From contig JACOUC010000036.1 in assembly GCA_016178055.1 (NCBI GenBank), positions 9-64,008 of the forward strand: a stretch of DNA of 64,000 nt, read 5' to 3'. Within the stretch, counting starts at the first letter, position 1; each line of letters begins with the position of its first letter. The translations under genes and the position numbers were made by a program. Under the pieces are notes generated by a model. The model was not told the DNA's origin and did no database searches. It was given only the letters and a program-made list of their open reading frames with translations. Shown here one piece after another: positions 6,901-63,754 of this stretch. This stretch comes from Chlamydiota bacterium. GTDB taxonomy: Bacteria > Auribacterota > JACPWU01.

Positions 6901-9900
6901 TAAAAGAACAATTAAAACACCCTCTTCACGCAAATGTTGAATTTTCTCATACAAAGACTCTCTGAACTGTCTATTGTAGTCGTCATCTCCGTCTCTCAGC
7001 ATATCCTCCGTGAAACCCGCAATGACAACAGCCGCATTCCTCTTTAAATCATTTGATAAGCCCAATATGGCATCGAGCACGACGTCATATCCTTTCCGTT
7101 CCACTGGACGGCCCGACATCAAAATAACTGTCTTACCGGACAAAGAATGATTTACTCTCAAGTCATCTGTTTTGGTAGTAGTCACATAACGAGGATCGTA
7201 AAAACTTAAATCAGCAACAGGATAAAGGCACTCCACTTCAACACCAAAGTCCTTCTGAAATCTTTTTTGAACAGACTCACTAACCGTCAGAGCTAAATCA
7301 GCTTTCTTAAGAATATTTACCGTATTCGGAGAGAAAAATCTTGAATCACCAACCAAATCTTCTGGGACTCGATCTAACAAACGCCAGGGCCCTGAGTGAA
7401 ATTCTTGGATCACAGGTATTTTATTTTGTTTTCCGAACGCATTAAAAGCATTCCCTGCATAGTGAAAAGAAGATTCACTCACAATGAGATCTACTTTACC
7501 CTCTTCTTGTAAAATTTTCCTTAACAAGCCATTGACTTCATCTGCAAGATCTTGCCCTGGCTCATTATTCTGACGAGTCATATGAATTTGAACAACGCCT
7601 TCCAATTCCGATGAAACGACGACTTTACCCCCATCCCGTTTCAATAATGGAGACACCCTTTGACCACCACCCAGAACAATCACATGGATTTTGAGTCCTT
7701 TAATCTCTTGAGCCAATAATAAAAGCAGATGATCCATATAGGTCGATACCCCATTCATCTCCAAATACCCAGGGGCATAAAAAACAAGCACTTTTCCCGA
7801 AAATGCCTCTTTGAGTTGAGATAAGTTCTCTGTTGTTGAAGCTTCCCCCTGTGTAACAGTAATCGAACCCTCTGGACTTGTTTGGGAACCTTGGTCATCG
7901 TTCGCATCATCCCCTAACACCCCCTTCTGATAAAGGGCCCCTGTGACCGTTACCCAATGATTAGAGACAATGTGGGCAATCAGGCCCATGGCCAAAACCG
8001 GCCAGAGGCGAAGTATATTTGAAAAAAGGTTTGATACAACACTCGTCGGTTGAATATCCGGAAGAAGACCAGCAAGGGCAATGTCAGGTTGAATTAACGA
8101 AGTTAATATCAGCAACCCCATGCCCACTACTAAAAAAATCGCTGCTCTTTGACTCTTTCCCTTGACTTGCCTAAGCATCTGTCCTACGATTCCTGCCATG
8201 GAAGAAAATAAATCTGAAAATGATTCCGTAATGAAATCAAGCCACGTGGCTGTCATTCTTGAAGACCTTCGAGGCCAATTTAAGGTTTTTGGAGAAGGGT
8301 TATCCGGACTTCGTGAAAAGACAGAGGAAGGCTTCGCAAGAATCGATAAAAAGTTCGACCGTATCGAAAATGAGCTTGCTAATTTTCGCGTTCGTGTGCG
8401 CGGAGTTGAAGACGGCAATGCACGTATAGAGACCAAAGTCGATAAGATCGAAACCCGACTAGAGAAGGTTGAGACCAAGGTTGATAAGATCGAAATCAGG
8501 CTAGGGAAGATCGAAACCCGACTAGAGAAGGGTGAAATCAAGGTAGAAAAGATTTCAGAAAGTAACGTCCGAATTGAGGCCGATCTTAGGATCATCAAAA
8601 ATCTTGTCAAAGTGAAGGTTGATTTGGAAGAATATAAAATTCTGGAAGATCGTGTTGCCCTTCTTGAATCAAAATTTGCTGCTCTAGCGAGATAACGCGC
8701 TCCATACAAATTCCACACCAAATAAAAAGTTATCCCAACCACCAAAATCATCTCCCACGATGAGAGCCCTGTACGGAAAAATCCAAGAAGTGAGACCAGA
8801 GAAATCAAGGTTGGAATGAAAATTCTTCTGAAGCTAGATGAAAAACCGCTCGAAGCTCGAGGCTCAAAGCTCGAGGTAAATACTTCTTCGGTTCTTTGCT
8901 TTTCCCTCGAGCTTCGAGCCTCCAGCTCATTTTTAGCTTCTAGCCGCCTTTCATGCCCCCACACAAACACCACTCTCAAGACGGCGTAGAGCACAGGACT
9001 TCCTAAAGATAAGGCCCAAATAAAAATTTCTTCGATAAAAGGAACAACAAAATCTTCTTTAAAATCTCGACTCAAAGACTTTCGTCCAAGAACATTTACC
9101 CAAAACCAGTCGAGAGGTCGAGTAACCTGAGACGCCAGCCAATAGGAAGGAAGAAGAACGCCTTTGCCAGAAGAGAAAGAACCTAAAGCAGGATCAACAT
9201 AGCGACTTATAAATGCTTTTAACTCTTGCACTTTAAACAGAGGTTTTTCAGAAAGTTTTCGGGCTTGAATCTCATTAATATAGTGATTGAGCCAAACTTT
9301 TGCTAATTCTAGTCCCTCCTTATTGCCATGTTTTTTCATCATCTCTAGCAAAAATCCTTGCATGACCCCTGTTCGAAGAATGGCATCATGCCCCTGGCCA
9401 AGACTTTCATGTCGATAGCCCTTCTCACCTTCCCTCAACGAGCCAAGCCAGTGTAAATTAAAATAGTAATCAAGAAAGTGAGATGGATCGATCCCTCTTT
9501 TAGTTCCCCGCCATGTGATGAGAGAGAATTTCATTTCCCGACCCGAAATAACAGAAGCTCTCCCTTGTGCCGCTGTCAAATCTCGAACATCCACTCCCAC
9601 ATCTCCTGCATTAATTCTAAAGCCATCAATCAGGGTTTGAGCCTCAGGATTATAGTAACGAACCAAAAACCGTCCCATGGCCGCAAGGGTATTGATCATA
9701 TCTCCAGGCTCAACAAAAGCGCCCCACTTTCCAGGCAAACTTGTATTAACGAGTAAATATCCAGGAGGGATTCGATTTGCCCAAGCATGATGAGGCGAAA
9801 TATACTGAATCTCATCCCGACCATTGATGAATCGACTCGTGTAGGCGCTCACTTTTCCTTCCTGAGTCTCGACCTCTCCATCACGCAAAACCTCGACCAA

Positions 9901-12900
9901 TTCTGCATCCCCGCGATGGCTTAAAAGGGCTTGATACTCACTCGATGTAACACGTGATTTTTCTTGTGCGTCTCTGGCCATGACCATCACCAAAGGAATC
10001 ACTTCCTTCGTTTGTTTTAAAGTTGTCAAAATAAAATAAATATTCTGATAAACCCCCTCTTGAAGGCGAATGACTTGAACAGGAAATTCAATATCATCTA
10101 AAGAAAGTTTACGCCCTCCCAATTCATCCTGAAGAGAATCGAGCAAAATATTTCCCTCTCCCGTTTCAAGATTCTTCATCAACAGAGCCTCAACCGCATT
10201 TCTTGATTGTGCCAATGTCAAATCATTGCGATCCCGAGGCACATCCCACTGATCTCCCTGCCGCCACTGACCCGCTCGATAGAGGTCATAATGGCAAATC
10301 CTACCCCCTTGAGCCATCGAGGCATTGTCCGGCATTTTCTCCATCGCTTGAGATAATCTTTGATAGATCTCAAGCGTCTGAGAGAAAGTGGAGGGCATTT
10401 TGGTTTTGAGTATATTCAGCTTTGATTGATAACGCTCAAGCAAAGTCCGATCCTGCAAAATCACAAAATTGACTGCTGTTAGAAATAAGAGTTGGTCTAC
10501 TTGACTCTGAATCGCCCCTTCAATAAGTTTTCCAAGTGTCCCGATCTCCTCGGAAAGCAAGGCCTGTCTCACTTCTTCTGTGATACGCTGATGCACATTT
10601 TCTCGTCGAACCACAAGAGGTTGAAGAGTAGAGGCTGCAGGCAAAGCAGTTTCACCAGACAAAATATGCGCCTCAATAAACCTCCTCAACGCCTTGCCCA
10701 GGGGATTTTTGCCTTCGCGATTGAAAATTTTATCTGTGAGCTGGATAATCTGAGGATGCGTAAGACGGGTTCTTTCCAAGGCCTCATGAAGGGTCGCTTC
10801 ATCCACCAGATCCGAAATGCCAGTGCTCTTTTCCTCCGCCTCAAGAAACTGCATCAGATTGACCGCCAAAGCGCTTTCAGAGCCCAAGAAATATTTTTCT
10901 CTGCTCAAGACCCGAGCCTCAAACCATTTGAAAGCCTCTCGAGGATTTTGAAGAGCCGCCAAGACCTTTACTATTTCATCGTTTTCAATTCCTTGCTGAA
11001 CCAATGTGCTCCAAATCTCACTTCCAAGGCGCCCAGCCAAAGCCCTCGAGCGTTCTTCCACAAGCGTTACAACAGGCTCATGGGAACTTCTCACCTTGTC
11101 ACTTTGCTCTTCAATTTCTCTTCGCCACTGGGCTTCTTCGTCAGGCGTAACCTCTGGGCCAATGATGTTGCCTGAAGATGGCTCTTCTTCACTTAAGGCG
11201 AGTGACGGAGATTGGGAAGTTTGAAGTTGCCACACAATTTTAGAAGATCCATCACCATTCGTCGTTAACACCTGACTCCCATCTTCAGAAAACTTAGCAG
11301 AGCGCACCCAATTTTTTCCTCCATAAAAAGTCTCAAGGAGCTCTCTTGTTTCAACATTCCATACTTGACCACTCCAATATCGAGTTCGCTCTAGGTAATA
11401 GTTATATTGATCACCCCCCCAGCTTGTTTCAGTTCTATCAAAACGCATTGTTAATACTGTACGTCCATCAGGGGAAACAAGAATATGAACAAGTTTTTTG
11501 CCCATGTATTCCCTATAACGCTTGATAATGCGTTCCTTTGCTTCTTCGGTTAATAGAGAATCAGGAGATCGAGGAGTCGTGGTACCTAAAGGAGCGTCTG
11601 ACGCTGTCGAAGTTACACTTCCTTTTTTCCCCCTCTTTCGAGAAGGACTTGACGGAGGTGTGACTGTTGCTCCAGCAGAGTCAGCTGTTATCGTTGTCGT
11701 GGTCGAATCAGCCCCTGAGCCCGTTTCATCTCGCACAGGTTCAGGGACTATGACTACTTTTGGAGCTTCCGTACATTCCATCCTCAACCAATATGTCACT
11801 TCATTCTCCCCTTCTGTAAAGCCCAACTGACACCCTGGAATAGATGCCATTTGTGCCTTGAGTTCGAGTAGTTTATTCCTGACATTGGATTCTCCTGATT
11901 CTCTGAGACGAAGGGCCTCCTGTCTTGCAGCTTCAATGTCTGGATATTCACCGGTGAGATGTGTTTTTAAGAATTTCTCTTCGTTGGCAGACATTCTTCC
12001 TTCTCTGACAATCTGAATATTAAAGTGGCCTTCTTTTAATTCACTTCCCAGTTCAATGAATCGGCCTGGGTTGTGGGTTTTGGCGATGCGGACAAATTCA
12101 TTGAGCCAGTCTTTTGCGATGGGTCTTTGTTCTTCTGGTAGAGGGAGAGCTTGTGTGAATGGGGTGATGGCTGCATCTTTTAGTTGGGGGTCGTTGTGGT
12201 TTGAACGCTGCCTTTGTTGAGGGGGTGCAGGTAAAGGGGTTCTGGCCCAGAAGCAGCCATATTGTCCATTCATCTGATCGGTTTTGGGAGCGGTTCTTTC
12301 AGAGTCGATGAGATTTGAAAGCACGGCTGGCTCCACCCCATCATTCTGAGAATCCACTGTTTGGCCGACGAGTCCCATGATCTTCTGAAAGATGGGAGCG
12401 ACAGCTTGAGAAGCTGATAATCGATTGTCTGAAGGGGGCGCAGGGTCGAAGGTGAATTGAAAGCCTCTTTCTGGGTTGATGTCTATGTGGAAGGTTCCGC
12501 CATTGAGAATGTGGCCTTGAGCCATTTCTTCGAGGATTCTGTTGCTTAAGGGGTCTCTGATCTCCTGTTCGATGAGTCGTCGTAAGGGCCGTGCCCCATT
12601 GATGATGTCATAGCCTCTTTGAGCGAGGGTTTCATAGACGTTATCCGCGACTTCGACTTTGAATTTGTTTTCTGTGAAGTCACTGAGTTCCCGTTTTAAG
12701 AGGATGCGAGCAATTTGTCTTATGTTTTCAGGGGTGATGACGTTGCAGGCGATGATGTGGTCGATGCGGTTGATGATTTCAGGTTTGTATTTGGCTCTGA
12801 TGCTGGTTTCTACGGTTTGGGCAATGAGGTCGTTCATTTGGGTAATAATAGCTTGTGTTGCCTCTTCTGTTTCTGCGGTTTTAAGTTCTTCAGCCAGGGT

Positions 12901-15900
12901 TCGTAATGGACCTTGTATTTTCTCCATGCCAATGTTGGAGGTCATGATGATGAGGGTGTTTTTGAAGTCGACGGTGTTCCCTTGGCCGTCGGTGAGTTTT
13001 CCTTCGTCGAAGACTTGCATGAGGGTGGTAAGGACGTCCGAATGGGCTTTTTCGATTTCATCAAAGAGGAGAACGGAATAAGGACGTTTGCGGACGGCTT
13101 CGGTGAGTTGGCCGCCTTCTTGGAATCCCACATAACCCGGTGGGGAGCCGATGAGTCTGGATTTTTGATGGGATTCTTGGTATTCACTCATATTGAAGAC
13201 CGTTAAGGCCTGGTCGCTGTCAAAGAGGAATTGAGCTAAGGCTTTAGCCAGTTCTGTTTTGCCTACGCCTGTGGGGCCGGCCATGAAGAAGACGCCCATG
13301 GGACGTTTGCGCTCACCGGGGATAGCCCGGGCACGACGAATGGCTTGAGCGACGGCTTTGATGGCGTCTTCTTGGCCTACGACTCTTTTATGGAGTTCTC
13401 CTTCGATGTTCAAATATTTGGCTGCGTCGTCTTGGTCTAAGGCACCGACGGCCATGCCGGTCATGTCGGCTAAATATTCCTGGACGTCGGCTTGGGTGAT
13501 GCGGATGTCTTTTCTTAAATTGGATAATCGGCTCAAAATAGTATGGTAAGCCTCGAGTATGCCGATCATTTGGTTATGGACTTCGATGACGGTGGGGTCG
13601 GTGTCTGGAACTCCTTCTTTTTTAAGGTCGATGTATTCGTTAATGACGCTGTGGAGACGGTTGAGGAAGTCTTCTTTAGTCATTTCTAGACTGTTCCTTC
13701 GGGCGTTGACTCGGCCCATGGTTCCTTCTAAGACGTCAATGGCTTTGCGGGGTTGGGATTTTTCAGAGAGATAGCGTTGGGCGCATTTGACAGCGGCTTT
13801 AATGGTAGCACGATCTATTTTGAGTGAGAATTTTCCTTCTAAGTAGGTTTTGGCGCCCGTAAGAATGGTTTCTGTTTCCTGGACACTGGGTTCAGGGACA
13901 GAAACTTTGGTAAACCTGTCTTCGAAGGGTTTGTCTTGTTCGATGTAGGCTTTGTATTCAGGGTCTGTCGTGGCCCCAATCACAGTGACTCGCCCTTTTT
14001 CCAGGATGGGCTTTAAGAGGTCTGCGATTCGGGTGTCAATGCTGTTGCTGGGCCCTTTCAATAGGAAATGGATTTCATCGATGAAGAGAATGACGTTGTT
14101 GTTGGTTTTTTCAAGGAGTGGGATCAGTGTTTTGAGGTTGTCTGACATCTCTGAGAGGGTGCTTCCTAAAGCACCCGCTTTAAGGGCAATGATTCTCCTA
14201 CCCTTTAAAGGGCCATCGAGGTTGTTTCGGGCAAGTTTCAAAGAGACGAGTTCGACGAGGGCTGTTTTACCGACTCCTCTGGGGCCGACAAGAACTAAGC
14301 TGTTTTTGATTCTTACTGGAGTGGCCAGACGAGCCATGATGCGGCCGATTTCTTCAGAGCGCCCCACCAATGGGCGAGCGCTGTCAGCTTCAAGAGCGAG
14401 GTCATAGGTATAGTCTTTTAATACCTGCCACTCTTTTTTCTTTTGACCATTGCCTAAATCGACATCTGCGTTCAGTCCTATTCTCTTCAAGTAATCATCC
14501 AGGGGCTCCATCGGAGACTCACCTACAGAGAGTCGAAGGAATGGGACACCGAGGAGATATCCTAAAAGACCTGCAACTACGGTAAACAATAAGGAAGCAA
14601 TCGAAGATCTCCCATTGATCATCGAAGCCCCCCATGGTACTATTTTGATAAAGGAGGCTTTAAAATGTCCGCGAAACTGCAAGAGCTGACGGAATTGATG
14701 GGAGAATTGGAGCCTAAAAGTCTTTCTCGACGAAGTAGAAATGTTGCCAAAGCGCTCTTGGGTAGCTGCCGCGGCCTCATCACGCCTCGAGGTAAGTCCT
14801 CTACCCGGTGGATCCGACAAGAACGTTCCTCCCTCCACAGCAAGGTGAGATAGTTCTGTGCCCTCATTACCAACACTCATTCTCGATACAGATGTCATTG
14901 TCAACTGGCTATCGGAAGAGCTTGAAACAGGAACAGGTCGAGAGTTATGGAAAGCCCCATTTGACATTATCTCTAAAGCAGAAGAAGGTCGCTCTAGTGT
15001 ACTCATTTGTCTTACAACTCTGTTAGAGCTTAGATTTCTCTTGAGGAGAAAGAAACGGCTGAGTGACGCTTCGATTCGGTCTATTATTAATCGAATGTTC
15101 CAAATTATTTCGGTCAATGTTCCTGACAAAACTGAATTGCTCAGGGCCAACCATCTCCAGAGCCTCCATCCTTTGGACCCGTTTGACGCAATACTGCTCG
15201 CTTGCGCCATGTCGTCTGAAGAAGCTATTCTTGTTTCTCGTGACAAGCCACTCCTTCGCATTGCATCTGAATTCCTTGAAGCACTTAACCCTGAAGATGC
15301 CCTCGCCAAAATTTCAAAGTCTTGAATAGCATCAATGCTAAGACGAAAAACCGGAGAGCCAAAAATCCATCCTAAGAGGCCTGTCCCTATGGCTAATAAC
15401 ACAGAACCAATTTTGAGGATGTGTTGAGCATGTGTATGCTCTCCTTTTCCATCGCCATGAGAATGGGTGTGAGCGGGTTTCATCACTATGCTTGAGGTAG
15501 GGCCTCCTTCATTTGAGGATTGAAGAAGTTCGAGGATTTTAAATTCATCGAGCCAATTCCCAATGGCTTCTACGACGCTTACTCCGTCAGGGAGCCTACA
15601 CTCTTCTATAAGTTTTCTTACAGTGGCTTCATCATCGGCCCCCATTTTTCCCATTTCACGCAGTTTTTCAATCAGCCTGGGCGTTAAGGCCTCACGAAAG
15701 CGCTCTTGAGTATAAGCACCGCTATTGATCATTTCATCCAGGGCCTCAGGGACGGCATGGGAAGCAGCATGTTCTGCGTCTTCTGAGTCTAAGTTGCTTT
15801 TGATGTCGGGATTCTTTTCGGCATCTTGAGCAAGTTGCCGCCCGATCCGGCCTAAGATCTGAGTCAATTTCTTCGCCGCTTCGTCTAGTTTTTTCTGAAT

Positions 15901-19887: not shown

Positions 19888-20084
19888 GACAACCCCTCTC
19901 GATCTTGAAAAAATCAATAATGACTGCAAGCTTACATAAGTAAAGACACTTTGGGGACTAGAAATGTAAAAATAAAAATTTAGAAATTTCCATCTCACAA
20001 TTGATAAAGGAAGGTTTCTTATAGAATAACCAGCTATTCCTTCAAGCCCTTACATAATGATTTCCTCTACTTTATGGAACTGTT

Positions 20085-24213: not shown

Positions 24214-24246
24214 TATTTCGAATCTCGGATTTCGAATTTCGAATTG
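24214..24246. repeat. Left inverted tandem-repeat array (ATTTCGA/ATTTCGG units) flanking the four-helix-bundle gene
   Basis: tcgaatctcggatttcgaatttcgaattg. Its reverse complement is found at 24617-24650 (aatccgagattcgaaatccgaaatccgaaatc). Confidence 0.6.
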
Positions 24247-24255
24247 AAAAACAAA

Positions 24256-24618
24256 ATGAATTCTCAAGAGTTAAAAACGAGGACTAAACTGTTTGGACTT
24301 AAAATCATTCTTTTGGTTGAAAAATTGCCACGTTCAAAAACATTGGATATTATAAATCGTCAACTTCTACGCTCTGCAACATCCATCGGGGCAAATTATA
24401 GAGCTGCATGTCGTGCAAGATCCAAAGCGGATTTTGTGTCAAAAATTGGCATTGTCGAAGAAGAATCCGATGAATCAGTTTATTGGCTTGAATTGCTTAT
24501 AGAAACTAAGCTGGTTACTGATACCCAAATACATGTCTTGCTTAAAGAAGCAAACGAGTTAACAGCGATCTTTACCGCAACAGGAAGAACTACAAAAGAA
24601 AAACAGAAAAATGAATAA
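24256..24618 (+). CDS. Four-helix-bundle protein (23S rRNA intervening-sequence-type, bAvd-like)
   Basis: The segment ELKTRTKLFGLKIILLVEKLPRSKTLDIINRQLLRSATSIGANYRAACRARSKADFVSKIGIVEEESDESVYWLELL matches the family consensus. The gene is bracketed by inverted 7-mer repeat arrays. Confidence 0.65.
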   Translation: MNSQELKTRTKLFGLKIILLVEKLPRSKTLDIINRQLLRSATSIGANYRAACRARSKADFVSKIGIVEEESDESVYWLELLIETKLVTDTQIHVLLKEANELTAIFTATGRTTKEKQKNE

Positions 24619-26118: not shown

Positions 26119-26178
26119 AGATCTATAAACGCGGATCTAACGCAGATCTATAAACGCAGATCAAATGCGGATCTATTT
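26119..26178. repeat. Left tandem-repeat array (about 11 bp AACGCGGATCT units) flanking the GxxExxY gene
   Basis: gatctataaacgcggatctaacgcagatctataaacgcagatcaaatgcggatctat. The inverted copy of the array lies at 26590-26648. Confidence 0.6.
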
Positions 26179-56701: not shown

Positions 56702-59700
56702 CTACGCCTTTACCGCAGCCAAGTCATACATCTGACGCGTTGCTTTATATTTTTCCTCGTCTAATTCTTCTTTCTTAAGATGCACGCTATAGGTCTTCAC
56801 TCCTTGTCCCACCTCTTTTGCCTTAAACCGTTTTGCAAGCTCTGCATTCATTGCGCTCAATTTATCAAACATCGTTTGATCAAGCTGGATATCAATCGCA
56901 TCGCCCAGTATGAGTTGATTCAAAATTTTCGAGTAAATAGATTGATGGCTGGGGTCGATCACAACCTGAATATTTTGAACTTGTAATCCCATTAAACCCT
57001 TCGCCTCAGCCGCTTTTATAATATAATTTTCCATATTTTCAGGGCTTGCCTCTTCTCGAGTGGGTGCCTGCTCAAAAATAATTCCTTCATTTCTAAATCT
57101 CAACAAAACTTCGGCTCCAGGAATTTTCTTATCAACCAATGCCTGAAGGCCACCGATCTTACCTTCATGGTCAACCAATACTATTTTCATTTGGCCTTGA
57201 CTCTGACGCATCTGGGCCGCTGCTTTTACTAAAACTGCAATTGAAGCCTCAGCCCCAGGACGAGCGATATTATTACCATCCACAAGAGTCGAAAGATCGA
57301 TCAGCAAAAGCGCCGGAGCTCTATCCAGTGCCTCTGGTCTGTCCATAAAAAGTCCACGAACAACTCCCTCAAGCGCTTCAGCCTTAGACGCTTCAAAACG
57401 ATTCGCAGATGTTTTCCGGATTGACTTCTGAAGCAATGCAAATTGTTTAACCGAGGTCTCAAATTTTTCAATTTGGAATATGACATTATCCGGAGACTTT
57501 CCTAAGGCTGTTAATATCAAGGGTAAATATTGCTTAATAAATTCTCTCTGCTCAGCACGATCATCTCCAATCACAGCTTGAAGGGCATCTAGATCCATTT
57601 CTCGAATTTCATTCCAGAGAAATTCTACTTGAGTAATATCAGTCCAACCATTTTCAATGATTTGAAGGGCCCAGGCCAATATATGACTGACACGAGCAAG
57701 ATCTGGTAACTCCCCCAACCCCTCTTGAACCAAGAGGGGAGTCCCTCCTACTGAAGTCTCTCCCCTTTCTTTTAAGGGGGAGCTGGAGAGGTTACTCTCC
57801 ATCCAATTTTTAATAAATATTTCCATCTTTTCATGCTGAAGAGCAATTTTTTTATCTTGGGCATTCCTAGAAATAAATATATAGAGCTTGCCATCATTCC
57901 CATAGCAGTGATAGGCCCCGCCGACCGTCTTTAAAATATCTTTTAAACCTGGAAACAATTTTTCCAGATGAGGATCATTTTCATCATAGTTCACTTCCTG
58001 ATACGTTGTAACCCCTCTAACTCCCCTTAAACTAAGGGGAGAGCCCGTCTCCCTTCCCGATTCAAGAGTAGCCATCTCCCCTCTTGGTTCAAGAGGGGTT
58101 GGGCGAGTTACGTTCTTTAACTTACTTAAATAAGGGTCGCCATCATCAATTGTCACCGTCCGACTCTTACTAATTTTTTTTAGATTTACTGCAAATTCAA
58201 TCATCTTTAATTCCTTATCACGACTCAAACTCACTTGATGATGCACCAATTTCTTACGAGCTCCGCCGCTTCCTGGCGTACCAGAGCCCGGAGGTGTTTT
58301 GGAGCCTGAAATTCGGGCGAGCCATCGGACGAAGGGAGATTGCGCAAACGCTTCAACCTTAAGCCAAGAAATTCCTGCCAATGTTGTATAAATTAGACTT
58401 TTTCGAAAGGTTAATTCCTCTAATGCCCTTTCCCTGAACCTTGATTCATAAGCGTTTAACTCGTCCATATTAATCTGCATAGTTCGCATAGGTTCTGGCA
58501 TGCGCCTATTTAAAGTTTCTATGACCCGATGCTGAAGAGATGCCCGCATTTCAGACGTTTCTGCTTCAACTCTTTCGAGAAATGCAGTGTCTTTCTCCCT
58601 CATTTTTCTTTCATGAAGTAGTGTCAACCCTTGTTTTCCATATTTGATGACCTCTAAAGCCGCCGCCCCTATGTGAGCTGCAAGGACAGCGATGCTATAT
58701 TCACGAGTTTCTCCACTATATCTTGCTCTACGCTGGACAAGTCTCTCTTCTAAAATAGGCTCTAGTTCATCTATCAAATCTGGATTGCTTATAATCCACT
58801 GCATCAAGTGCCATTCTGAAATTTCATGAACACCCACTTCGTCACGTTCTTCCATTTTAAGGTTTCGACTCATCCAAATTTCAACACGATTCCTTTCAGC
58901 AACTTTAATCACCGCATCATTTCCTTGAAGTTTATCAGCAGGCACCAAATAACAGCTTAGTTCGGCATCTTCACCCAAAAAGTTTTTAATCTGTTTATAA
59001 GGAAAAGATGGAATTAAAAATGACTCGTACTTATTTGACTCTGCCGGCTCATGAAGTGAGGGAAGACCCATCTCACCCTGAGAAGAACGGCTTTGATCGG
59101 CCCTTTGACCCGTAGAAGTAGTTGTAGAAACTGCATGAGCAAGCGTACCAAAAGCACCCGCCACCTCTGGAGCCAAAACATCATCAACGATTTCGATGTC
59201 AGGTGAAATTTCCTCTGGTAAAACAATGTCTAATTGATCTAGGGCCTCTGAAGTCGACATTCTCTGTGTAACGTCCTTCGCGAGAAGTCCTCTGAAAAAA
59301 GTTTGAAGATCGGAATTCAATTTTGAAAAAGCTGCTTCATATTGTCCATCAAAGGGATCGACATTTGTCACCTTTTCACGCCCTTTTACTGCACGACCTT
59401 GCCCCGTGGGCACTTCTCTATCCATGACTCGAAAGGGACTTGTGTTTAAAAGGGACATATATAAAATAACCCCCAGTGCAAAAAGATCACTTTTAAAACT
59501 GAAATTGCCATCATAAGTTTCTGGAGACATATAGGTAAGAGAGCCAATAATGAATCCGGATCGAACCTTTATTTCAGGAGAACCCGCAGCCCCAAAATCG
59601 ATCAGGGTCATTTTGTTTGTTTTAGGATTATAAAAGAAGTTTGCAGGCTTAAGGTCTCGATGGACTAAATTTAGGCCATGAACTTCTTCCAAGGTTTTCA

Positions 59701-62700
59701 GCAGCTCTTTAAAAGCCGTCAAAATATTATTCTGAAATGTTTCATATGTTAACTCTCCACTCACCAGTTGAGTTCGAAGGTTATGAACATATTGATCCCA
59801 TCTGATTGTCCCTTCTTCTTGAGTTACATCATCCATTGCAATGAATGAATCCCCATTTTCTAGAACACCAAACTCACGAACCGCAGGGTCTGGATTGTTT
59901 GGAAGGTCATGTACTTGTTTCTGAATTTGAGCTTCTCTTTCAGGGGTTGGGAGATAATGATAATCATCCTCTGGGCGAGGCGAAATAATTTTTAAAGCTA
60001 CGTGCTCGTTAGCATTTGTATCCAGAGCTCTAAAAACAGAACCTTGACCTCCTTCACCTAACTTCTCCAAAATCTGATAGTGACCCATGACTGTTCCAAT
60101 CTCATAAACATGTCTAGGTGTAGAAGGTGAAGCAGAGGGCGACAATCCACTCTCCCCTTCAGGAGCAGGTTCTTCTAGCAAGGCTTCGACTGGGACTTCA
60201 GGTCTAGCTAAAAAAGAGGAAGCCTCTGCCTCAGCCAAAATAACCGGTGTTATTCTCTCTAACTCATTCAAAGCCTGAGCGGCATTTTTGAATCTTTGAC
60301 TCACATGCTGATCTAGAATTTGTCTTATATAAGACATCAAGGGAGGAGAAATAGAAGCAATATCTTGTCCCTGAAACGCATCATTACCCAATTTCTTCGT
60401 TGCAATCACAACTTCTACATCTCCTGGAGCAATGCCAAAGGGAAAAGAAGCAGCGATCATATTAAAAAAGATTACGCCAGCAGAATACAAATCTGATTGA
60501 ACCGTTCGTCTTGTCTCAGGAGCTGCGTATAAGAAAGAAAGCTGCTGAAGGGCTTGTTCTTCTTCCGTCTCACTTGTTGAAGAACCAAAATCAAGGAAGG
60601 TGATTTGATGCTTAGAGGCATTGTAGCGTATATTTTCAGGTTTAAGGTCATTGTGTAATATCCCCCGAGCATGAAGTTCACCCAAAGCAGTCAGTAAAGC
60701 TTTAAAAAACGTTAGCATCTCTTGCATGTATACATCTCTTGAAAGAGTTCCTTCATCCATCCCATCTTGTAAGCGTACAATATAATCCTGAAGATCTTCA
60801 TCTTGATTAAAGTCCATCACAAGAAAATGACGTTGGCTCCCCTGATCATAACCATATCCATAAACTGAGGGGGCAGGTCCTCCATCGCGGGATGCAGATA
60901 ACTGACGTTGATATTCTTGCTCAATTTTTCTTTCGGCATCCTCAGCTCCCTCTTTCATCCACTTAATAGCACGTACATTGCCATCAACATCCTTAGCCTC
61001 CCAGGTTTCTGCAGTCGTTCCTTCACCTAATTTATTTACTAAGCGATAGCGACCATCAATAATCGTTGCCCCCTGACGATTCCATTGACTTAACACTTCA
61101 AAAGCTTGGACTTCAGCATTCAAAGCTTCTAAGGCATCATTGATATTCCAATAAAGCTCATCCAGTTGTTTTCTATCTTCCGCCGAAAGTTGAGCCAAAG
61201 CATCTCTTGCACTAACAAAATCATTCACTAAATTTGCTTCGCTCAGATTTAACGACGTCACCTCATCAGGTGAGGCAGAAGATAAATCTTCCCTCCATCC
61301 CTCAACTTGATTCATTGCCTCAGCAATACGATTCCGTAGAGAAAGCATTTGAGACCGAAGCGTCTCTTCTCCTTCAGACCCAGCCAATTCAGGAGACGGA
61401 GCTTCTTCTCCTCCACCAGCCAATTGAAATTCATCTAAAGAAGCGCTGTTAAAATCAATTCTCAAAACGGGCAGAAGATGATCATAAGTATGCTGATCTG
61501 GCGAAGACAAAACCTGCTTCAAAATTGCCTTTCGTTGCTGGTGAATTCCTGTTTCTAATACAGGATCATTTAATTGGTTTAAAATAGATCTCAAGTCCTG
61601 ATCACTTTCAAGAAGTCCTAAAAATTCGACATATCGCTCATCGATTCTTTTCAAGGAGGCCCCGCTCCCTTTCGGAAGTTTCCGAGCTCGATCAAGGAGA
61701 CAATCCATCCAAAAGGCTGAAACAGCATGAGGAGTAAGCGTCTCCACAAAAGTATTCCCTAAAACGCCACGAGCAAGAACCTGTAAGGGTGCTTTAAAAG
61801 GTTTCATTCCCTTTTCACTGTAAGGTCTAAATCGAAAAATGAGGGGCTCCCCTTTTATTAATCCAAATACAAGCCGGGCCCCTTCTTCATCCAAAGCACT
61901 ATATAAAATTTTAATCCCTTCACGATCTCTATCTTTTAACCACTGCGCTAATTCAGGATTTTTCTCTCTCCGCTTACGCGCATAAGCAAGCGTTGCTGCC
62001 GTCAGAGCAAATTCAGCCTTAAAATCATCTCCCACTTGCGTTTTTCTTCTGGGATCCGTGCTGATAAATCCAATGCCATCCTCTAGAGCAAGCATTTCTC
62101 CAATCCCCTTTAGATCTTCAGCCGTCAACGCATATTCTGGATCGCCCATTCTCTTCAGATAAAGCTGATAAGCCTCTTCAATAGAGTCCCTCGGAATCAC
62201 AGGAGAAATCACATGATAGGAAATATTTTTTTGTTGAAAGAATTTTTCCAAACCAGGGGTATGATAACCCCCAACCATCAGAACAGCACTCTTAACATTT
62301 TTTTCAGAAAACGAAGCCATGAAATTTTTGGCGATTTCTCCATCGCGAGATTTAATAGTTTTGTAATATTGCTCATACAATGGAAAATATTTTTTCAATG
62401 GAGCACTATCTTCGCCCATAAACTGCTGAATTTTATCCCAGCCCAAACGCTCAATCGTTTCCTCAACAAGCGTTAAGTCATCTTCACGACCTCTTAATTC
62501 CGCCATTCTTTTAAGGGCATAGAGCCATTCAAAAATAATTGCGGATTTATCAGAAATAAAACTCAGTTTAAGATTCTCTTCAATCTCACGAATTTCTTCC
62601 ATCAATTGATTGTCATTAATTTCAGTTCTAAACTGATAGGCCTGAATCGAACGGTCAATATTAGGGTAATCTTTTAGATTAATTTCTGAGCGCTTAGAGA

Positions 62701-63754
62701 AATCAATCAGAGCCAGATAATATTCATTAATTGAAAGCTCATTCATTCGATATTGAAGCGTCAGTTCAAGTAATTGAATGAGATCCTTTCGGGATAATTC
62801 ATCACCTAAAACATCCAGAAGCTTTCTCTCCTCATCTCCCAAGAGACTTGGATGAATTTCTTTTTCCATTTCAAAGTAATGAAGAACGTTTACATAATTT
62901 CGGATTTTGGATTTTGGATTTTGGATTTTTAAGGAGATCTGTAAATCGCTTAAAGCCTGGCAATAATCAAAAAGGCTTAATTCGTGACGAACATATTGAT
63001 CATGAAATTTAATCAATGAAATAAGTTGAGAGTTTTTTGCCTCGAGCCTCGAGCCTCGAGCCTCGAGCTGCTTTATTAATTCCTCTAAAACGGGCAGGAC
63101 TTCATCCTTCACCTTTAAAACATCTAAAAAGAGTTTCTTATTTTTTAAATAGTAAAGAGGCGTTTCAATTCCATAGAGAAGTGGATTGGACTCACTTGTA
63201 ATGGCATAAAACTCAGGCCCATTGAGCTTGGCATTTTTCATCAAAAATTCTGCAGTATCTCGGCGGATTTCTGGATCTGGAAGATTCTTAAAATAAGAAT
63301 AATCAAGGGCGCCACTGGCGCCTTCAAGGGCGATGAGAAAGCTGGAGCTTCGAGCTTCGAGGCTACTTTGGCTCGAGGCTCGAAGCTCGAGGCTCGAGGT
63401 AAATACTTTCTCAGTTTTTGCTTTTGTTTCTGCTTCGAGCTGATTTTCAATAATTTCCAAGATCCTGGCCATTCGCCATTGGACTTCAAAGTTCCCGTGG
63501 GCGTCTTGAAGGAGATAAATGGTTTTTGCATCTTTATCGGGAGAAATCCAGCTTCGCTCAATCCATCCTAATTTTTGAGGAATATAAAAATCTATATTTT
63601 TACCGAGAGAAGAAACGGAAGCAGGATTAAAGGGCAGCGTTTGCGCAAAAAGACTCTGGGAAGAGAAAATCATATCTTTCTCTATCAAAGAGAATGCGAA
63701 GGCAACCGTCACCCCAATACGGATCAATTTTATAAATAATGTTTCTCTTTTCAT
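56702..63754 (-). CDS. Giant multidomain protein, ORF3 (2350 aa: Tiki/ChaN-like N-domain, two Ser/Thr kinases, C-terminal module shared with ORF2)
   Basis: ATG at 63754 with AGGAG 4 nt upstream. Signal peptide MKRETLFIKLIRIGVTVAFAFSL. Its stop is about 100 bp upstream of the ORF2 start on the same strand. Confidence 0.7.
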   Translation of the reverse strand: MKRETLFIKLIRIGVTVAFAFSLIEKDMIFSSQSLFAQTLPFNPASVSSLGKNIDFYIPQKLGWIERSWISPDKDAKTIYLLQDAHGNFEVQWRMARILEIIENQLEAETKAKTEKVFTSSLELRASSQSSLEARSSSFLIALEGASGALDYSYFKNLPDPEIRRDTAEFLMKNAKLNGPEFYAITSESNPLLYGIETPLYYLKNKKLFLDVLKVKDEVLPVLEELIKQLEARGSRLEAKNSQLISLIKFHDQYVRHELSLFDYCQALSDLQISLKIQNPKSKIRNYVNVLHYFEMEKEIHPSLLGDEERKLLDVLGDELSRKDLIQLLELTLQYRMNELSINEYYLALIDFSKRSEINLKDYPNIDRSIQAYQFRTEINDNQLMEEIREIEENLKLSFISDKSAIIFEWLYALKRMAELRGREDDLTLVEETIERLGWDKIQQFMGEDSAPLKKYFPLYEQYYKTIKSRDGEIAKNFMASFSEKNVKSAVLMVGGYHTPGLEKFFQQKNISYHVISPVIPRDSIEEAYQLYLKRMGDPEYALTAEDLKGIGEMLALEDGIGFISTDPRRKTQVGDDFKAEFALTAATLAYARKRREKNPELAQWLKDRDREGIKILYSALDEEGARLVFGLIKGEPLIFRFRPYSEKGMKPFKAPLQVLARGVLGNTFVETLTPHAVSAFWMDCLLDRARKLPKGSGASLKRIDERYVEFLGLLESDQDLRSILNQLNDPVLETGIHQQRKAILKQVLSSPDQHTYDHLLPVLRIDFNSASLDEFQLAGGGEEAPSPELAGSEGEETLRSQMLSLRNRIAEAMNQVEGWREDLSSASPDEVTSLNLSEANLVNDFVSARDALAQLSAEDRKQLDELYWNINDALEALNAEVQAFEVLSQWNRQGATIIDGRYRLVNKLGEGTTAETWEAKDVDGNVRAIKWMKEGAEDAERKIEQEYQRQLSASRDGGPAPSVYGYGYDQGSQRHFLVMDFNQDEDLQDYIVRLQDGMDEGTLSRDVYMQEMLTFFKALLTALGELHARGILHNDLKPENIRYNASKHQITFLDFGSSTSETEEEQALQQLSFLYAAPETRRTVQSDLYSAGVIFFNMIAASFPFGIAPGDVEVVIATKKLGNDAFQGQDIASISPPLMSYIRQILDQHVSQRFKNAAQALNELERITPVILAEAEASSFLARPEVPVEALLEEPAPEGESGLSPSASPSTPRHVYEIGTVMGHYQILEKLGEGGQGSVFRALDTNANEHVALKIISPRPEDDYHYLPTPEREAQIQKQVHDLPNNPDPAVREFGVLENGDSFIAMDDVTQEEGTIRWDQYVHNLRTQLVSGELTYETFQNNILTAFKELLKTLEEVHGLNLVHRDLKPANFFYNPKTNKMTLIDFGAAGSPEIKVRSGFIIGSLTYMSPETYDGNFSFKSDLFALGVILYMSLLNTSPFRVMDREVPTGQGRAVKGREKVTNVDPFDGQYEAAFSKLNSDLQTFFRGLLAKDVTQRMSTSEALDQLDIVLPEEISPDIEIVDDVLAPEVAGAFGTLAHAVSTTTSTGQRADQSRSSQGEMGLPSLHEPAESNKYESFLIPSFPYKQIKNFLGEDAELSCYLVPADKLQGNDAVIKVAERNRVEIWMSRNLKMEERDEVGVHEISEWHLMQWIISNPDLIDELEPILEERLVQRRARYSGETREYSIAVLAAHIGAAALEVIKYGKQGLTLLHERKMREKDTAFLERVEAETSEMRASLQHRVIETLNRRMPEPMRTMQINMDELNAYESRFRERALEELTFRKSLIYTTLAGISWLKVEAFAQSPFVRWLARISGSKTPPGSGTPGSGGARKKLVHHQVSLSRDKELKMIEFAVNLKKISKSRTVTIDDGDPYLSKLKNVTRPTPLEPRGEMATLESGRETGSPLSLRGVRGVTTYQEVNYDENDPHLEKLFPGLKDILKTVGGAYHCYGNDGKLYIFISRNAQDKKIALQHEKMEIFIKNWMESNLSSSPLKERGETSVGGTPLLVQEGLGELPDLARVSHILAWALQIIENGWTDITQVEFLWNEIREMDLDALQAVIGDDRAEQREFIKQYLPLILTALGKSPDNVIFQIEKFETSVKQFALLQKSIRKTSANRFEASKAEALEGVVRGLFMDRPEALDRAPALLLIDLSTLVDGNNIARPGAEASIAVLVKAAAQMRQSQGQMKIVLVDHEGKIGGLQALVDKKIPGAEVLLRFRNEGIIFEQAPTREEASPENMENYIIKAAEAKGLMGLQVQNIQVVIDPSHQSIYSKILNQLILGDAIDIQLDQTMFDKLSAMNAELAKRFKAKEVGQGVKTYSVHLKKEELDEEKYKATRQMYDLAAVKA
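57713..57782. repeat. Family B palindromic element (CCCCTCTTGAACCAAGAGGGG and CTCCCCTTTCTTTTAAGGGGGAG hairpins), in frame in ORF3
   Basis: It is an inverted partner of 58021-58103, about 240 bp away. Confidence 0.6.
58021..58103. repeat. Family B palindromic element, inverted partner (CTCCCCTTAAACTAAGGGGAG ... CCCCTCTTGGTTCAAGAGGGG), in frame in ORF3
   Basis: The reverse complement matches 57713-57782 over about 80 bp with gaps. Confidence 0.6.
59380..60095 (-). other. ORF3 Ser/Thr kinase domain 2
   Basis: HYQILEKLGEGGQGSVFRALD at 60020-60088, VALKII, VHRDLKPANFFY at 59643-59665, IDFGAAG and LTYMSPE. Confidence 0.7.
60330..61070 (-). other. ORF3 Ser/Thr kinase domain 1
   Basis: RYRLVNKLGEGTTAETWEAKD at 61021-61070, RAIKW, HNDLKPENIRY at 60612-60660, LDFGSS and LYAAPE. 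Confidence 0.65.
63039..63068. repeat. Family A element, single arm, in frame in ORF3
   Basis: gcctcgagcctcgagcctcgagcctcgagc. It encodes LEARGSRLEAK. Confidence 0.6.
63343..63440. repeat. Family A palindromic element, full, in frame in ORF3
   Basis: gagcttcgagcttcgaggc...ggctcgaggctcgaagctcgaggctcgagg taaatactttctcagtttttgcttttgtttctgcttcgagc. Confidence 0.75.

What the first reader, a model, noticed from the sequence alone, without database searches (positions are those of the whole stretch)
8848..63440. Family of palindromic repeat elements inserted in frame at 10 or more sites in the giant ORFs
Elements built from CTCGAGG/CTCGAAG units (core GGCTCGAGGCTCGAAGCTCGAGG ... TTTGCTTTTGCCTCGAGCTTCGAGCC) form about 80-200 bp hairpins with a conserved loop (TAAATACTTCT...TTTGCTTTTG). 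They occur at 8848, 17945, 18798, 19362, 54884 and 63343 as full elements, and as single arms at 18554, 36486, 55621 and 63039. Every copy preserves the reading frame, encoding LEARGSKLEAK...SSLEPRASS-type peptides. Because the element is palindromic it encodes similar peptides in either orientation. Several copies split the N-terminal Tiki-like domain between its two conserved motifs. This is strongly reminiscent of Rickettsia palindromic elements that colonise coding sequences, but here they are concentrated in giant genes and may have helped them expand.
Basis: seen in the sequence. Interest (0 to 1): 0.8.

Follow-up and report, generated by a model that had tools for sequence, protein, structure and literature searches.

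The report
In-frame heptamer-stem hairpin repeats in giant genes
A family of 75-125 bp DNA hairpins, whose stems are runs of the 7-base unit GCTCGAG, has been copied in frame into loops of the N-terminal domain of three huge secreted proteins, much as Rickettsia palindromic elements sit inside genes.

Summary
Ten loci of a GCTCGAR-heptamer repeat lie in the three giant minus-strand ORFs: six full hairpins and four truncated single arms. The full hairpins fold at -32 to -56 kcal/mol, except the decayed copy in ORF C. All ORFs stay open.

The copies share a conserved non-palindromic loop. They are the only nucleotide similarity among the three ORFs, and they sit at non-homologous sites. The loop is read in at least two frames. 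They are absent from distant homologues of the domain. They are therefore DNA-level dispersed repeats, analogous to RPEs and in-frame MITEs.

- The copies concentrate in the about 500-residue N-terminal Tiki/ChaN-like domain (8 of 10 loci in 10% of the window), not in giant genes as such.
- They make up only 2% of giant-ORF length, so they do not explain gene size.

The lineage ("Chlamydiae bacterium" groundwater MAGs) is rich in heptamer-stem hairpins. Stop-rich families are intergenic, and some flank four-helix-bundle and GxxExxY cassette genes. One copy of this same family sits at a gene's 3' end in a related MAG.

Verdict: a new variant of a known kind. The copying mechanism is unknown.

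The parts
3931..19998 (-). Giant ORF A (5355 aa), host of five N-terminal element loci and one internal locus
   Evidence: translation. The N-terminal domain is paralogous to those of B and C at 26-27% identity.
35563..56601 (-). Giant ORF B (7012 aa). It equals P0007, MBI1870667.1 / MBI3276470.1, named 'protein kinase [Chlamydiae bacterium]'
56702..63754 (-). Giant ORF C (2350 aa)
19362..19560 (-). Site-1 composite element in ORF A. It has two left-arm arrays (19490-19520 and 19530-19559), a short loop, and a right arm (19449-19470, resuming at 19362-19375). The right arm is split by a nested GC-rich palindrome at 19375-19447.
   Evidence: Sequence; translation. Core hairpin -32.1 kcal/mol, z -3.7. 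Nested insert -43.8 kcal/mol, z -2.0. The site is empty in ORF B, P0004 and P0005.
18796..18919 (-). Site-2 long-loop element in ORF A, orthologous to L121 10855-10966
   Evidence: -55.9 kcal/mol, z -6.0. It is 82% identical over 124 nt to the ORF B copy, which sits at a different site. Alignments.
18544..18578 (-). Site-3 single arm in ORF A. It adjoins about 250 nt of unexplained inserted coding sequence at 18290-18540.
17946..18052 (-). Site-4 short-loop element in ORF A with a duplicated loop-end plus right arm. Its loop is read in a different frame (RQKQK) from most copies.
   Evidence: -51.4 kcal/mol, z -8.1. Frame. It is 82% identical over 95 nt to the ORF C site-1 copy.
8846..8929 (-). 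Short-loop element in ORF A at about residue 3690, outside the N-terminal domain
   Evidence: -46.2 kcal/mol, z -7.1
54883..55007 (-). Site-5 long-loop element in ORF B, just after the GGFHT motif region. It is absent from the 45-56% identical relatives P0008-P0010.
   Evidence: -50.7 kcal/mol, z -6.4. The encoded peptide has pLDDT below 50 in the model.
55619..55652 (-). Site-3 single arm in ORF B (peptide ILEPRASS)
   Evidence: It falls in a predicted loop, residues 315-323.
36485..36531 (-). Truncated element (one arm plus part of the loop) near the C-terminus of ORF B, at about residue 6695
   Evidence: It is 91% identical over 46 nt to 63370-63414. Reproduced in Logan contig L243.
63342..63442 (-). 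Site-1 short-loop element in ORF C with a decayed left arm and an extra arm fragment at 63342-63361
   Evidence: Fold -17.4 kcal/mol, z -1.6.
63036..63071 (-). Single arm in ORF C (peptide QLEARGSRLEAK)
62897..62929 (-). In-frame array of a different heptamer, (CCAAAAT)n, in ORF C at site 2
33178..33262 (+). Intergenic hairpin of the same architecture (heptamer arms plus an AT-rich loop) between the two transketolase subunit genes
   Evidence: -38.1 kcal/mol, z -7.2. It has stops in 5 of 6 frames. A Logan contig breaks inside it.
27994..28105 (+). Intergenic AAAATCA-type heptamer hairpin, homologous to L121 8558-8680 and 6910-7033
   Evidence: It has stops in all six frames.
24215..24648 (+). 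Four-helix-bundle (TIGR02436 / PF05635, 23S IVS-type) gene flanked by inverted heptamer arrays at 24215-24245 and 24618-24648
   Evidence: A homologue from an unrelated sample is also flanked by heptamer hairpins.
26119..26647 (+). GxxExxY (TIGR04256) gene flanked by inverted 11-13-mer arrays, lying between tldD and pmbA

Best explanation
The elements are a lineage-specific family of small, non-autonomous palindromic repeats. Each has a left arm (GCTCGAR)3-4, a conserved loop GCAAAAGCAAAAAC.GAAGAAGTATTTAC (or a longer loop variant), and a right arm (YTCGAGC)3-4.

Copies have been made at the DNA level into new sites after the three giant genes diverged. Because the arms contain no stop codon on either strand and the loop is open in most sense frames, a copy that adds a multiple of 3 bases to a permissive region of a protein does not break the gene and can persist. 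Such regions include inter-helix loops of the N-terminal Tiki/ChaN-like domain and the end of that domain.

Copies then decay by losing an arm, by nested insertion of other hairpins and by point change. This leaves solo arms.

The family belongs to a wider class of heptamer-stem hairpins in these 'Chlamydiae bacterium' MAGs. Members of that class with stop-rich sequence are confined to spacers.

Shown here: the repeat family, the hairpins, the insertions relative to homologues, dispersal to non-homologous sites, the use of different reading frames, and an orthologous copy retained across species.

Inferred: that persistence is passive tolerance rather than function, and that clustering in this domain reflects arm-to-arm recombination, local copying or target preference. 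The copying enzyme or mechanism is unknown.
For: 1. One family with a shared non-palindromic loop. Nine copies align through both arms and the loop. The long-loop type is the short-loop type plus an extra loop segment.

2. Dispersal. blastn among the 44 kb of giant ORFs finds only the elements. Examples are 18794-18917 vs 54881-55004 (82% over 124 nt; site 2 vs site 5) and 17949-18043 vs 63350-63441 (82% over 95 nt; site 4 vs site 1). The host domains are only 26-27% identical in protein.

3. Insertions. All five sites are empty in the distant homologues P0004 and P0005. Each site is occupied in only some paralogues. The ORF B copies are absent from its 45-56% identical relatives. None of the other 149 best representatives of the domain family carries the peptides.

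4. DNA level, not protein level. The loop GCAAAAGCAAA is read as AKAK in four copies and as RQKQK or REKQR in two. A copy in a related MAG is antisense to its gene and half non-coding.

5. Stop-codon filter. These elements have stops in only some frames, and in no frame at all on the sense strand of 17946-18052. The intergenic AAAATCA-type hairpins have stops in all six frames, and the 33178 hairpin has them in five of six.

6. Permissive sites. Sites 1 and 3 map to predicted loops, site 2 to a helix end, and site 5 beyond the domain with pLDDT below 50. The same sites hold unrelated inserts in relatives: SPLKLRGAGGVMEE, PLPRGEGLGEG, and (GAAGTCA)n or (ACTCACG)n arrays.

7. Lineage context. 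Period-7 arrays of at least 3 units number 18 in the window, 11 in L121 and 6 in L122, against 0-1 for each of periods 8-12 and 0 in shuffles. Many are intergenic hairpins.

8. Decay. The solo arm at 36485 keeps part of the loop. The ORF C copy has lost an arm. A GC-rich palindrome is nested in the ORF A site-1 copy.
Against: - No transposase, RAYT or other mobility gene was found next to any copy, and target-site duplications are not clear. AAAAC flanks the site-2 copy, but there is no consistent pattern.
- The clustering is stronger than simple tolerance predicts. Eight of 10 loci are in 9.8% of the window, and none is in the window's spacers although other hairpin families are there.
- All independent in-ORF copies, at least six events, have the same orientation.
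- The site-1 copy is better conserved between ORF A and P0001 than its flanks: 78-96% nt and 70-100% at third positions, against 55-67% and 25-55%.
- P0003 carries at site 1 a hairpin whose two arms have both changed, to GCTGGGAA / TTCCCAGC, and which still folds at -39.6 kcal/mol.
- The last three points could mean that the hairpin itself is under selection.
- The source genome could not be surveyed as a whole.
Confidence: 0.6

Rival explanations
1. The hairpins are functional RNA (or DNA) structures selected in the 5' part of the giant genes. With 18-24 bp of near-perfect stem they could be RNase III cleavage sites, transcription or translation pause sites, or mRNA stabilisers. They would tune expression of very long secreted proteins, and the encoded peptide would be a by-product.
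For: - Stems are very stable (-46 to -56 kcal/mol).
- All in-ORF copies share one orientation.
- They concentrate in the first 2-3 kb of each gene.
- The site-1 copy has higher third-position conservation than its flanks.
- A hairpin persists at site 1 in P0003 with both arms changed.
- Four of 19 consensus pairs show double changes that keep pairing.
- The antisense copy at the DUF4416 gene end has a hairpin plus a T-rich tail, like a terminator.
Against: - Occupancy is patchy. ORF B lacks sites 1, 2 and 4, ORF C lacks sites 3-5, and the close relatives of ORF B lack all copies.
- Copies decay to solo arms and receive nested insertions.
- The same loops hold unrelated inserts in relatives.
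- The site-2 copy is no better conserved than its flanks.
- The covariation counts are confounded by the repetitive arms.
- Arm concordance can also arise from re-insertion of a variant element or from arm-to-arm correction.
Confidence: 0.17
2. The heptamer arrays are contingency (phase-variation) loci. Slippage by one 7-base unit would shift the frame and switch a giant surface protein off or on.
For: - The unit length is not a multiple of 3 and the arrays lie inside ORFs for secreted proteins.
- Heptamer repeats are known slippage-prone simple repeats and are over-represented in many bacteria (PMC4692102).
Against: - The arrays are short (3-4.4 units) and interrupted by A/G variants.
- Slippage does not explain the paired inverted arms or the conserved loop.
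- ORF B is identical in two MAG records, and the 36485 arm is identical in an independent per-run assembly.
- All three ORFs are in the 'on' state.
Confidence: 0.05
3. The inserts are selected at the protein level, as flexible or charged surface linkers or coiled segments of the Tiki-like domain. The nucleotide similarity would then simply follow from a conserved peptide.
For: - The peptides are hydrophilic (LEARGSKLEAKAK / SSLEPRASS) and predicted to be disordered or surface-exposed.
- The site-2 peptide is retained between ORF A and P0001.
Against: - The same DNA is read in different frames.
- One copy in a related MAG is antisense and partly non-coding.
- A peptide has no need for the two halves of its coding sequence to be reverse complements.
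- Distant and close homologues work without the inserts.
- Other, unrelated sequences occupy the same loops.
Confidence: 0.08
4. The elements are an assembly artefact: palindromic chimeras or collapsed repeats at XhoI-rich sequence in a metagenome assembly.
For: - Short-read contigs break at these repeats. Logan contig L243 begins inside the 33178 hairpin and ends at the 36485 arm.
Against: - Reading frames of 2350-7012 codons pass through every copy.
- The sequence is identical in independent assemblies and in two MAG records.
- Orthologous copies occur in a different MAG at the same protein sites.
Confidence: 0.02

Closest known systems
Rickettsia palindromic elements (RPE; Ogata et al. 2000, as reviewed in PMC2229807)
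   Same: - Both are short palindromic repeats (RPE 105-146 bp) that fold into long stem-loops.
- Both are found in spacers and fused in frame inside conserved protein genes without destroying them.
- For both, the insert is thought to be neutral or slightly deleterious and tolerated.
- No clear target duplication or mobility gene is known for either.
   Different: - The host is a PVC / 'Chlamydiae bacterium' groundwater MAG, not Rickettsia.
- The stems here are tandem heptanucleotide arrays, which I am not aware of in RPEs (my own knowledge; no RPE sequence was compared here).
- In the DNA sampled, copies pile up in one protein domain rather than being spread over many housekeeping genes.
- Several copies occur per gene, and nested inserts are present.
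Bacterial MITE-like repeats with open frames (Correia/NEMIS 107-bp form, ERIC, YPAL; PMC2229807)
   Same: - These are repeats of about 100-200 bp with terminal inverted repeats and stable transcript hairpins.
[quoted passage not shown] The window shows the same contrast.
- Correia hairpins are RNase III targets, which is a possible parallel.
   Different: - Typical bacterial MITEs are A+T-rich, end in TA and make target-site duplications.
- Here the arms are G+C-rich heptamer arrays, no TA ends are seen, and a duplication is not established.
Heptanucleotide tandem repeats (cyanobacterial STRR of Calothrix; heptamer simple repeats over-represented in bacteria; PMC4692102)
   Same: - The building block is a tandem array with a 7-base unit.
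   Different: - Those are simple direct arrays, mostly between genes.
- None of the 120 loci fetched has the two arrays in inverted orientation around a loop.
- The hairpin form with a conserved loop, inserted in frame, is what is particular here.
23S rRNA intervening-sequence type cassettes (four-helix-bundle protein PF05635 / TIGR02436; GxxExxY TIGR04256)
   Same: - In the window, both small genes are bracketed by inverted arrays of short tandem units. A four-helix-bundle homologue from another sample is flanked by heptamer hairpins.
- This is a stem-loop-stem architecture like the elements, with a gene in place of the loop.
   Different: - The in-ORF elements carry no gene.
- Their heptamer is different.
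- No cassette with GCTCGAR arms was found. A tblastn of the 120 GCTCGAR loci found none.

Membership tests
Rickettsia palindromic elements (RPE) | Palindromic repeat of roughly 100-150 bp predicted to form a long stem-loop | tested here: met
   Elements are 75-125 nt with stems of 18-24 pairs, -46 to -56 kcal/mol and z -6 to -8.
Rickettsia palindromic elements (RPE) | Copies fused in frame inside protein-coding genes that stay intact | tested here: met
   Ten loci lie inside open ORFs of 2350-7012 aa. They are insertions relative to homologues.
Rickettsia palindromic elements (RPE) | Copies also in non-coding regions | tested here: inconclusive
   One copy straddles a gene end and spacer in related MAG locus L121. 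None is in the spacers of this window. The whole genome was not available.
Rickettsia palindromic elements (RPE) | Sequence relatedness to the RPE-1 to RPE-8 consensus, and occurrence in Rickettsia | not tested
   No RPE sequences were at hand. The host proteins are annotated 'Chlamydiae bacterium'. Only the analogy is claimed, not membership.
Bacterial MITE | Terminal inverted repeats and a size below about 300 bp | tested here: met
   The arms are inverted repeats of 22-36 nt at 83-96% complementarity.
Bacterial MITE | Target-site duplication, TA termini, A+T-rich body | tested here: inconclusive
   AAAAC occurs on both sides of the site-2 copy, but the flanks of nine aligned copies are not consistent. 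The arms are G+C-rich and no TA termini are seen.
Bacterial MITE | A parent insertion sequence or transposase with matching ends in the same genome | not testable with these tools
   No transposase is in the window. The rest of the genome could not be fetched.
Simple-sequence contingency locus | Tandem repeat inside an ORF with a unit length that is not a multiple of 3 | tested here: met
   Period-7 arrays lie inside the ORFs.
Simple-sequence contingency locus | Unit-number variation between cells or strains that switches the frame | tested here: inconclusive
   No variation was seen. ORF B is identical in two MAG records, and the 36485 arm is identical in a Logan assembly. Reads were not examined.
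Tiki / ChaN / TraB / erythromycin-esterase superfamily (host domain) | Shared fold | tested here: met
Tiki / ChaN / TraB / erythromycin-esterase superfamily (host domain) | Significant match to a family profile | tested here: inconclusive
   The window proteins have no Pfam hit. Homologue P0004 hits PF04187 at 27.4 bits against a cut-off of 27.7. A profile search of PDB sequences found nothing.
23S IVS-type cassette | Small four-helix-bundle or GxxExxY gene bracketed by inverted repeats | tested here: met
   This holds for 24215-24648 and 26119-26647. It does not apply to the in-ORF elements, which carry no gene.

The most novel reading that the evidence does not exclude
Heptamer-stem hairpins may be the ends or footprints of a still uncharacterised mobility system. 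It would be shared with the small four-helix-bundle and GxxExxY (PD-(D/E)XK-like) cassettes that are bracketed by the same kind of inverted heptamer arrays. The in-ORF GCTCGAR elements would then be gene-less miniature derivatives that this system copies, in a strand-specific way, into arrays or loops of a preferred gene family. That would account for the single orientation, the clustering and the concerted change of both arms.
Probability: 0.18. Interest if true: 0.8.

Novelty: new variant of a known kind. Interest (0 to 1): 0.55.

Why it matters
In-frame 'selfish' palindromes are textbook for Rickettsia but are rarely documented elsewhere. Here the same outcome appears in an uncultivated PVC lineage, with a distinct architecture in which the stems are built from heptanucleotide arrays.

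Several things can be read from one locus: recurrent use of the same protein loops by different repeat families, orthologous copies retained across species, decay products and nested insertions. That gives a natural map of the permissive sites in a domain that heads thousands of very long proteins (7454 relatives in the representative library).

There are also practical consequences:
- The repeats break short-read assemblies.
- They add junk peptides that may contribute to profile searches missing the domain (an inference; the window proteins have no Pfam hit).

If the link to the heptamer-flanked four-helix-bundle and GxxExxY cassettes is mechanistic, it would point to an unknown way of moving small DNA hairpins.

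Tried and rejected
1. Scan of genome contigs with GCTCGARGCTCGARGCTCGAR. None has inverted paired arms, and the source genome was not reached. So the heptamer array is widespread, but the scan said nothing about the hairpin family. An open-frame test on those loci is confounded by high GC and was not used.

2. Scan of metagenome contigs with GCTCGARGCAAAAGCAAA. All 120 loci lack arms. They are chance or unrelated matches, because the pattern was too short for that collection.

3. Search of 5.8 billion proteins with concatenated element peptides. It returned only P0006 and missed P0001, which carries a segment identical to part of the query. The search was therefore insensitive, and its near-emptiness is weak evidence.

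4. Exact look-ups of window proteins. The GDE protein, ORF C, P0002 and P0006 are not on record. ORF B is too long to look up. The rest of the source genome could not be sampled.

5. Rfam at gathering thresholds finds no family at the hairpins.

6. A probe for the second small GC hairpin type found nothing at up to 3 mismatches.

7. The idea that solo arms are specially placed to pair with neighbouring elements was dropped. Any solo arm is complementary to one arm of any full element.

8. My first impression that the elements are open in 5 of 6 frames was wrong. The count varies from copy to copy.
Full report
**Setting.** The window carries three very long ORFs, all on the minus strand: A (3931-19998, 5355 aa), B (35563-56601, 7012 aa) and C (56702-63754, 2350 aa). 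Between them lie ordinary genes: MqnC-like, UbiD, an FHA-GAF-SpoIIE phosphatase, a glycogen debranching enzyme, TldD/PmbA, a DUF1559 pseudopilin-like protein and a split transketolase. ORF B is identical to NCBI proteins MBI1870667.1 / MBI3276470.1, named 'protein kinase [Chlamydiae bacterium]', on a 66.8-kb MAG contig. I use that organism label as annotated and did not test it.

- The 23-mer core matches 25 times at up to 3 mismatches, against 0 in shuffles. A two-unit probe matches 62 times against 0.33 expected.
- Six loci have two arrays in inverted orientation around a loop. Four have one array.
- On the gene strand the layout is (GCTCGAR)3-4, then GCAAAAGCAAAAAC.GAAGAAGTATTTAC, then (YTCGAGC)3-4. 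A long-loop variant replaces TTTAC with GAAAATNAATCTCTTCCTNTTTCCTC.
- As RNA the full copies fold at -46.2, -51.4, -55.9, -32.1 and -50.7 kcal/mol, and no shuffle is as stable. The ORF C copy has lost most of its left arm.
- The peptides read LEARGSKLEAKAK...(V)FTSSLEPRASS.
- Two per-run Logan assemblies are 100% identical to window 33192-36516 and 23585-25095. The first ends exactly at the arm at 36485-36516 and starts inside another heptamer hairpin. The repeats are therefore real and they break short-read graphs.

**DNA repeat or protein motif?** It is a DNA repeat.
- blastn among the 44 kb of giant ORFs finds nothing except the elements. Full-length copies at non-homologous protein positions are about 82% identical: site 2 of A vs site 5 of B over 124 nt, and site 4 of A vs site 1 of C over 95 nt. 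The host domains are 26-27% identical in protein.
- The loop is read as AKAK / AETK in four copies and as RQKQK / REKQR in the copies at 17946-18052 and 8846-8929. Because a heptamer array yields the same cyclic peptide in every frame, only the loop reveals this.
- In a related MAG (GCA_016196915.1, locus L121) a copy of the same family lies antisense at the end of a DUF4416 gene. The gene reads through one arm and stops at the loop's TAA. The rest of the copy is spacer, followed by a T-rich stretch.

**Are they insertions?** Yes.
- The N-terminal 500-900 residues of A, B and C are paralogous.
- Alignment with the related proteins P0001-P0003 and the distant homologues P0004/P0005 defines five sites.
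- All five sites are empty in P0004 and P0005.
- Site 1 is filled in A, C, P0001 and P0006, and by a variant element in P0002 and P0003. It is empty in B.
- Site 2 is filled in A and P0001.
- Site 3 holds a solo arm in both A and B.
- Site 4 is filled in A.
- Site 5 is filled in B only.
- The closest relatives of ORF B (P0008-P0010, 45-56% identical) lack its copies. At the same places they carry unrelated inserts, such as PLPRGEGLGEG-type peptides, a (GAAGTCA)n array, and PLKIRGG / SPRHSEPSPRHSE.
- Among the 150 best representatives of the domain family, which has 7454 members at E <= 0.001, only ORF B itself has LEARGS / PRASS peptides.
- The site-2 copy of ORF A is orthologous to that of P0001, so some copies predate the split of these species.

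**The host domain.**
- Pfam finds nothing in the window proteins. P0004 has a borderline PF04187 (ChaN, Tiki superfamily) hit over the GGFH region. A profile search of PDB sequences found nothing.
- An AlphaFold model of ORF B residues 1-550 has pLDDT 78.5.
- From my own knowledge (Sanchez-Pulido and Ponting 2013), these belong to the Tiki/TraB/ChaN/EreA superfamily.
- Sites 1-4 lie between the invariant DIH (77-79) and GGFH (480-483) motifs.
- Sites 1 and 3 fall in predicted loops and site 2 at a helix end. Site 4 falls in a lower-confidence, poorly aligned helical stretch. Site 5 lies beyond the domain, where pLDDT is below 50.

- The elements are not a feature of gene gigantism. Eight of 10 loci lie in the N-terminal domains, which are 9.8% of the window. 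The probability is 3e-7 under a uniform model over the window and 6e-6 over the giant ORFs alone. The elements sum to 892 nt, or 2.0% of giant-ORF length.
- The same domain with the same elements appears in partial or fragmentary gene calls of 215 and 1222 aa in relatives.
- All in-ORF copies share one orientation, so 'either orientation' is not seen inside ORFs.

**The wider context.**
- Period-7 arrays of at least three units number 18 in the window, 11 in 13.7 kb of L121 and 6 in 21.9 kb of L122. Periods 8-12 give 0-1 each and shuffles give none.
- Many of these arrays form spacer hairpins with the same architecture but other heptamers. One lies at 33178-33262, between the transketolase genes. 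Another lies at 27994-28105 and has homologues in L121.
- These spacer families have stop codons in five or six of the six frames. The GCTCGAR family has stops in only some frames. The Correia 107-bp and 155-bp forms show the same contrast (PMC2229807).
- Other heptamer arrays also sit in frame: (CCAAAAT)n in ORF C, (GAAGWCA)6 in the valyl-tRNA synthetase of L122, and (ATTGCGG)n in P0001.
- The GCTCGAR family is lineage-specific. It is present in the source genome, in GCA_016196915.1 and in the HYS07 MAG. It is absent from 69 kb sampled from GCA_016178005.1, where site 1 carries a hairpin with GCTGGGAA / TTCCCAGC arms that folds at -39.6 kcal/mol.
- Two small genes in the window are bracketed by inverted arrays of short tandem units: a TIGR02436 four-helix-bundle (23S IVS-type) protein and a TIGR04256 GxxExxY protein. 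A 72%-identical four-helix-bundle gene from an unrelated sample is flanked by heptamer hairpins as well.

**Most likely mechanism (confidence about 0.6).**
- The elements are a family of small non-autonomous palindromic repeats, copied at the DNA level.
- Copies persist inside genes only where they add a multiple of three bases, meet no stop codon and land in a permissive region of the protein. They then decay to solo arms and receive nested insertions.
- Shown here: family membership, dispersal, insertion status, frame differences, hairpin potential and the stop-codon contrast.
- Inferred: that the copies are neutral, and why they cluster. I favour copying seeded by homology between existing arms, or local copying among the paralogous domains. 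That would also explain solo arms lying next to full copies, but it is untested.

**What argues for more than passive tolerance.**
- The clustering is very strong.
- All in-ORF copies share one orientation.
- The site-1 copy has higher third-position identity between ORF A and P0001 than its flanks.
- Both arms have changed together in the P0003 site-1 hairpin.
- I therefore keep an RNA- or DNA-structure function as the main rival (0.17). Against it stand the patchy occupancy, the visible decay and the use of the same loops by unrelated inserts.
- Phase variation (0.05) fits the 7-base unit. It does not fit the short interrupted arrays, the paired arms, or the identical sequence in independent assemblies.
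- A protein-level role (0.08) does not explain the different frames or the need for reverse complementarity.
- An assembly artefact is excluded for practical purposes.

**Comparison with known systems.**
- The closest functional analogue is the Rickettsia palindromic element, together with the open-frame forms of bacterial MITEs (Correia 107 bp, ERIC, YPAL). These are small hairpin repeats found in spacers and fused in frame to genes (PMC2229807).
- I do not file the elements as RPEs. Sequence relatedness was not tested, the host is unrelated, and heptamer-array stems are not, to my knowledge, an RPE feature.
- Typical MITE hallmarks (TA ends, an A+T-rich body, a clear target duplication, a parent IS) are not met or could not be tested.
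- Heptanucleotide arrays as such are known and over-represented in bacteria (PMC4692102). Arrays of this exact unit occur in many phyla, but only as simple direct arrays in the 120 loci seen.
- Two papers on giant genes of Omnitrophota (10.1101/2023.11.21.568195 and 10.64898/2026.06.07.730766) do not mention palindromes, hairpins or tandem repeats in such genes.

**Verdict.**
The 'giant-gene expansion' reading is rejected.
- This is a new variant of a known kind, of moderate interest.
- The untested link to the heptamer-flanked cassette genes is the most novel possibility.

Noticed in passing
window 29248-29373 (+): A c-di-GMP-I riboswitch (RF01051, 56.9 bits, E 1.8e-8) lies directly upstream of the DUF1559 / GspG-like pseudopilin ORF at 29397-30494.
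   Followed up: no
window 24215-24648: A four-helix-bundle (TIGR02436, PF05635, 23S IVS-type) gene is bracketed by inverted heptamer arrays (31 nt, 87% complementary). It sits between the debranching-enzyme gene and tldD. A 72%-identical gene in an unrelated Logan sample (L246) has heptamer hairpins on both sides.
   Followed up: partly
window 26119-26647: A GxxExxY (TIGR04256) gene is bracketed by inverted arrays of 11-13-base units and lies between tldD and pmbA. It looks like an inserted cassette.
   Followed up: partly
window 57706-58111 (ORF C): A 36-nt inverted repeat, 97% complementary, brackets 334 nt of coding sequence. The peptides here (TPLEPRGEM, SPLSLRGVRGV, PLLVQEGLGE) resemble the SPLKLRGAGGVMEE inserts of P0001-P0003. 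This suggests a second family of small GC-rich hairpins tolerated in frame.
   Followed up: partly
window 18290-18540 (ORF A): About 250 nt of low-complexity coding sequence (SLRPSPGTRRSGWTRKWLEPNTAQTTRRG...) is inserted at site 3 next to the solo arm. It is absent from all homologues. Its origin is unexplained.
   Followed up: no
window 19375-19447 (ORF A): A GC-rich palindrome (-43.8 kcal/mol) is nested inside the right arm of the site-1 element.
   Followed up: partly
L122 2048-2091; L244 11677-11714: In a related MAG, valyl-tRNA synthetase carries an in-frame (GAAGWCA)6 array in its zinc-loop region. The same heptamer forms an in-frame array at site 5 of P0008.
   Followed up: partly
L244 1-1628 (GCA_016178005.1, JACOUD010000087.1): A related MAG has a called gene for a 19,623-residue protein next to kinase/PP2C giant genes that share the same N-terminal domain. 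That domain family has 7454 members in the representative library, many of 2,000-8,000 residues.
   Followed up: no
window 33192 and 36516: A Logan contig of 3325 bp begins inside the 33178-33262 hairpin and ends exactly at the GCTCGAG arm at 36485-36516. These repeats fragment short-read assemblies. Many four-helix-bundle homologues are likewise on contigs of only 0.5-2 kb.
   Followed up: partly
window 24611-24660: The longest ORF for TldD starts inside the heptamer array (MNKSEIRNPKSEIK...). The true start is probably further downstream.
   Followed up: no
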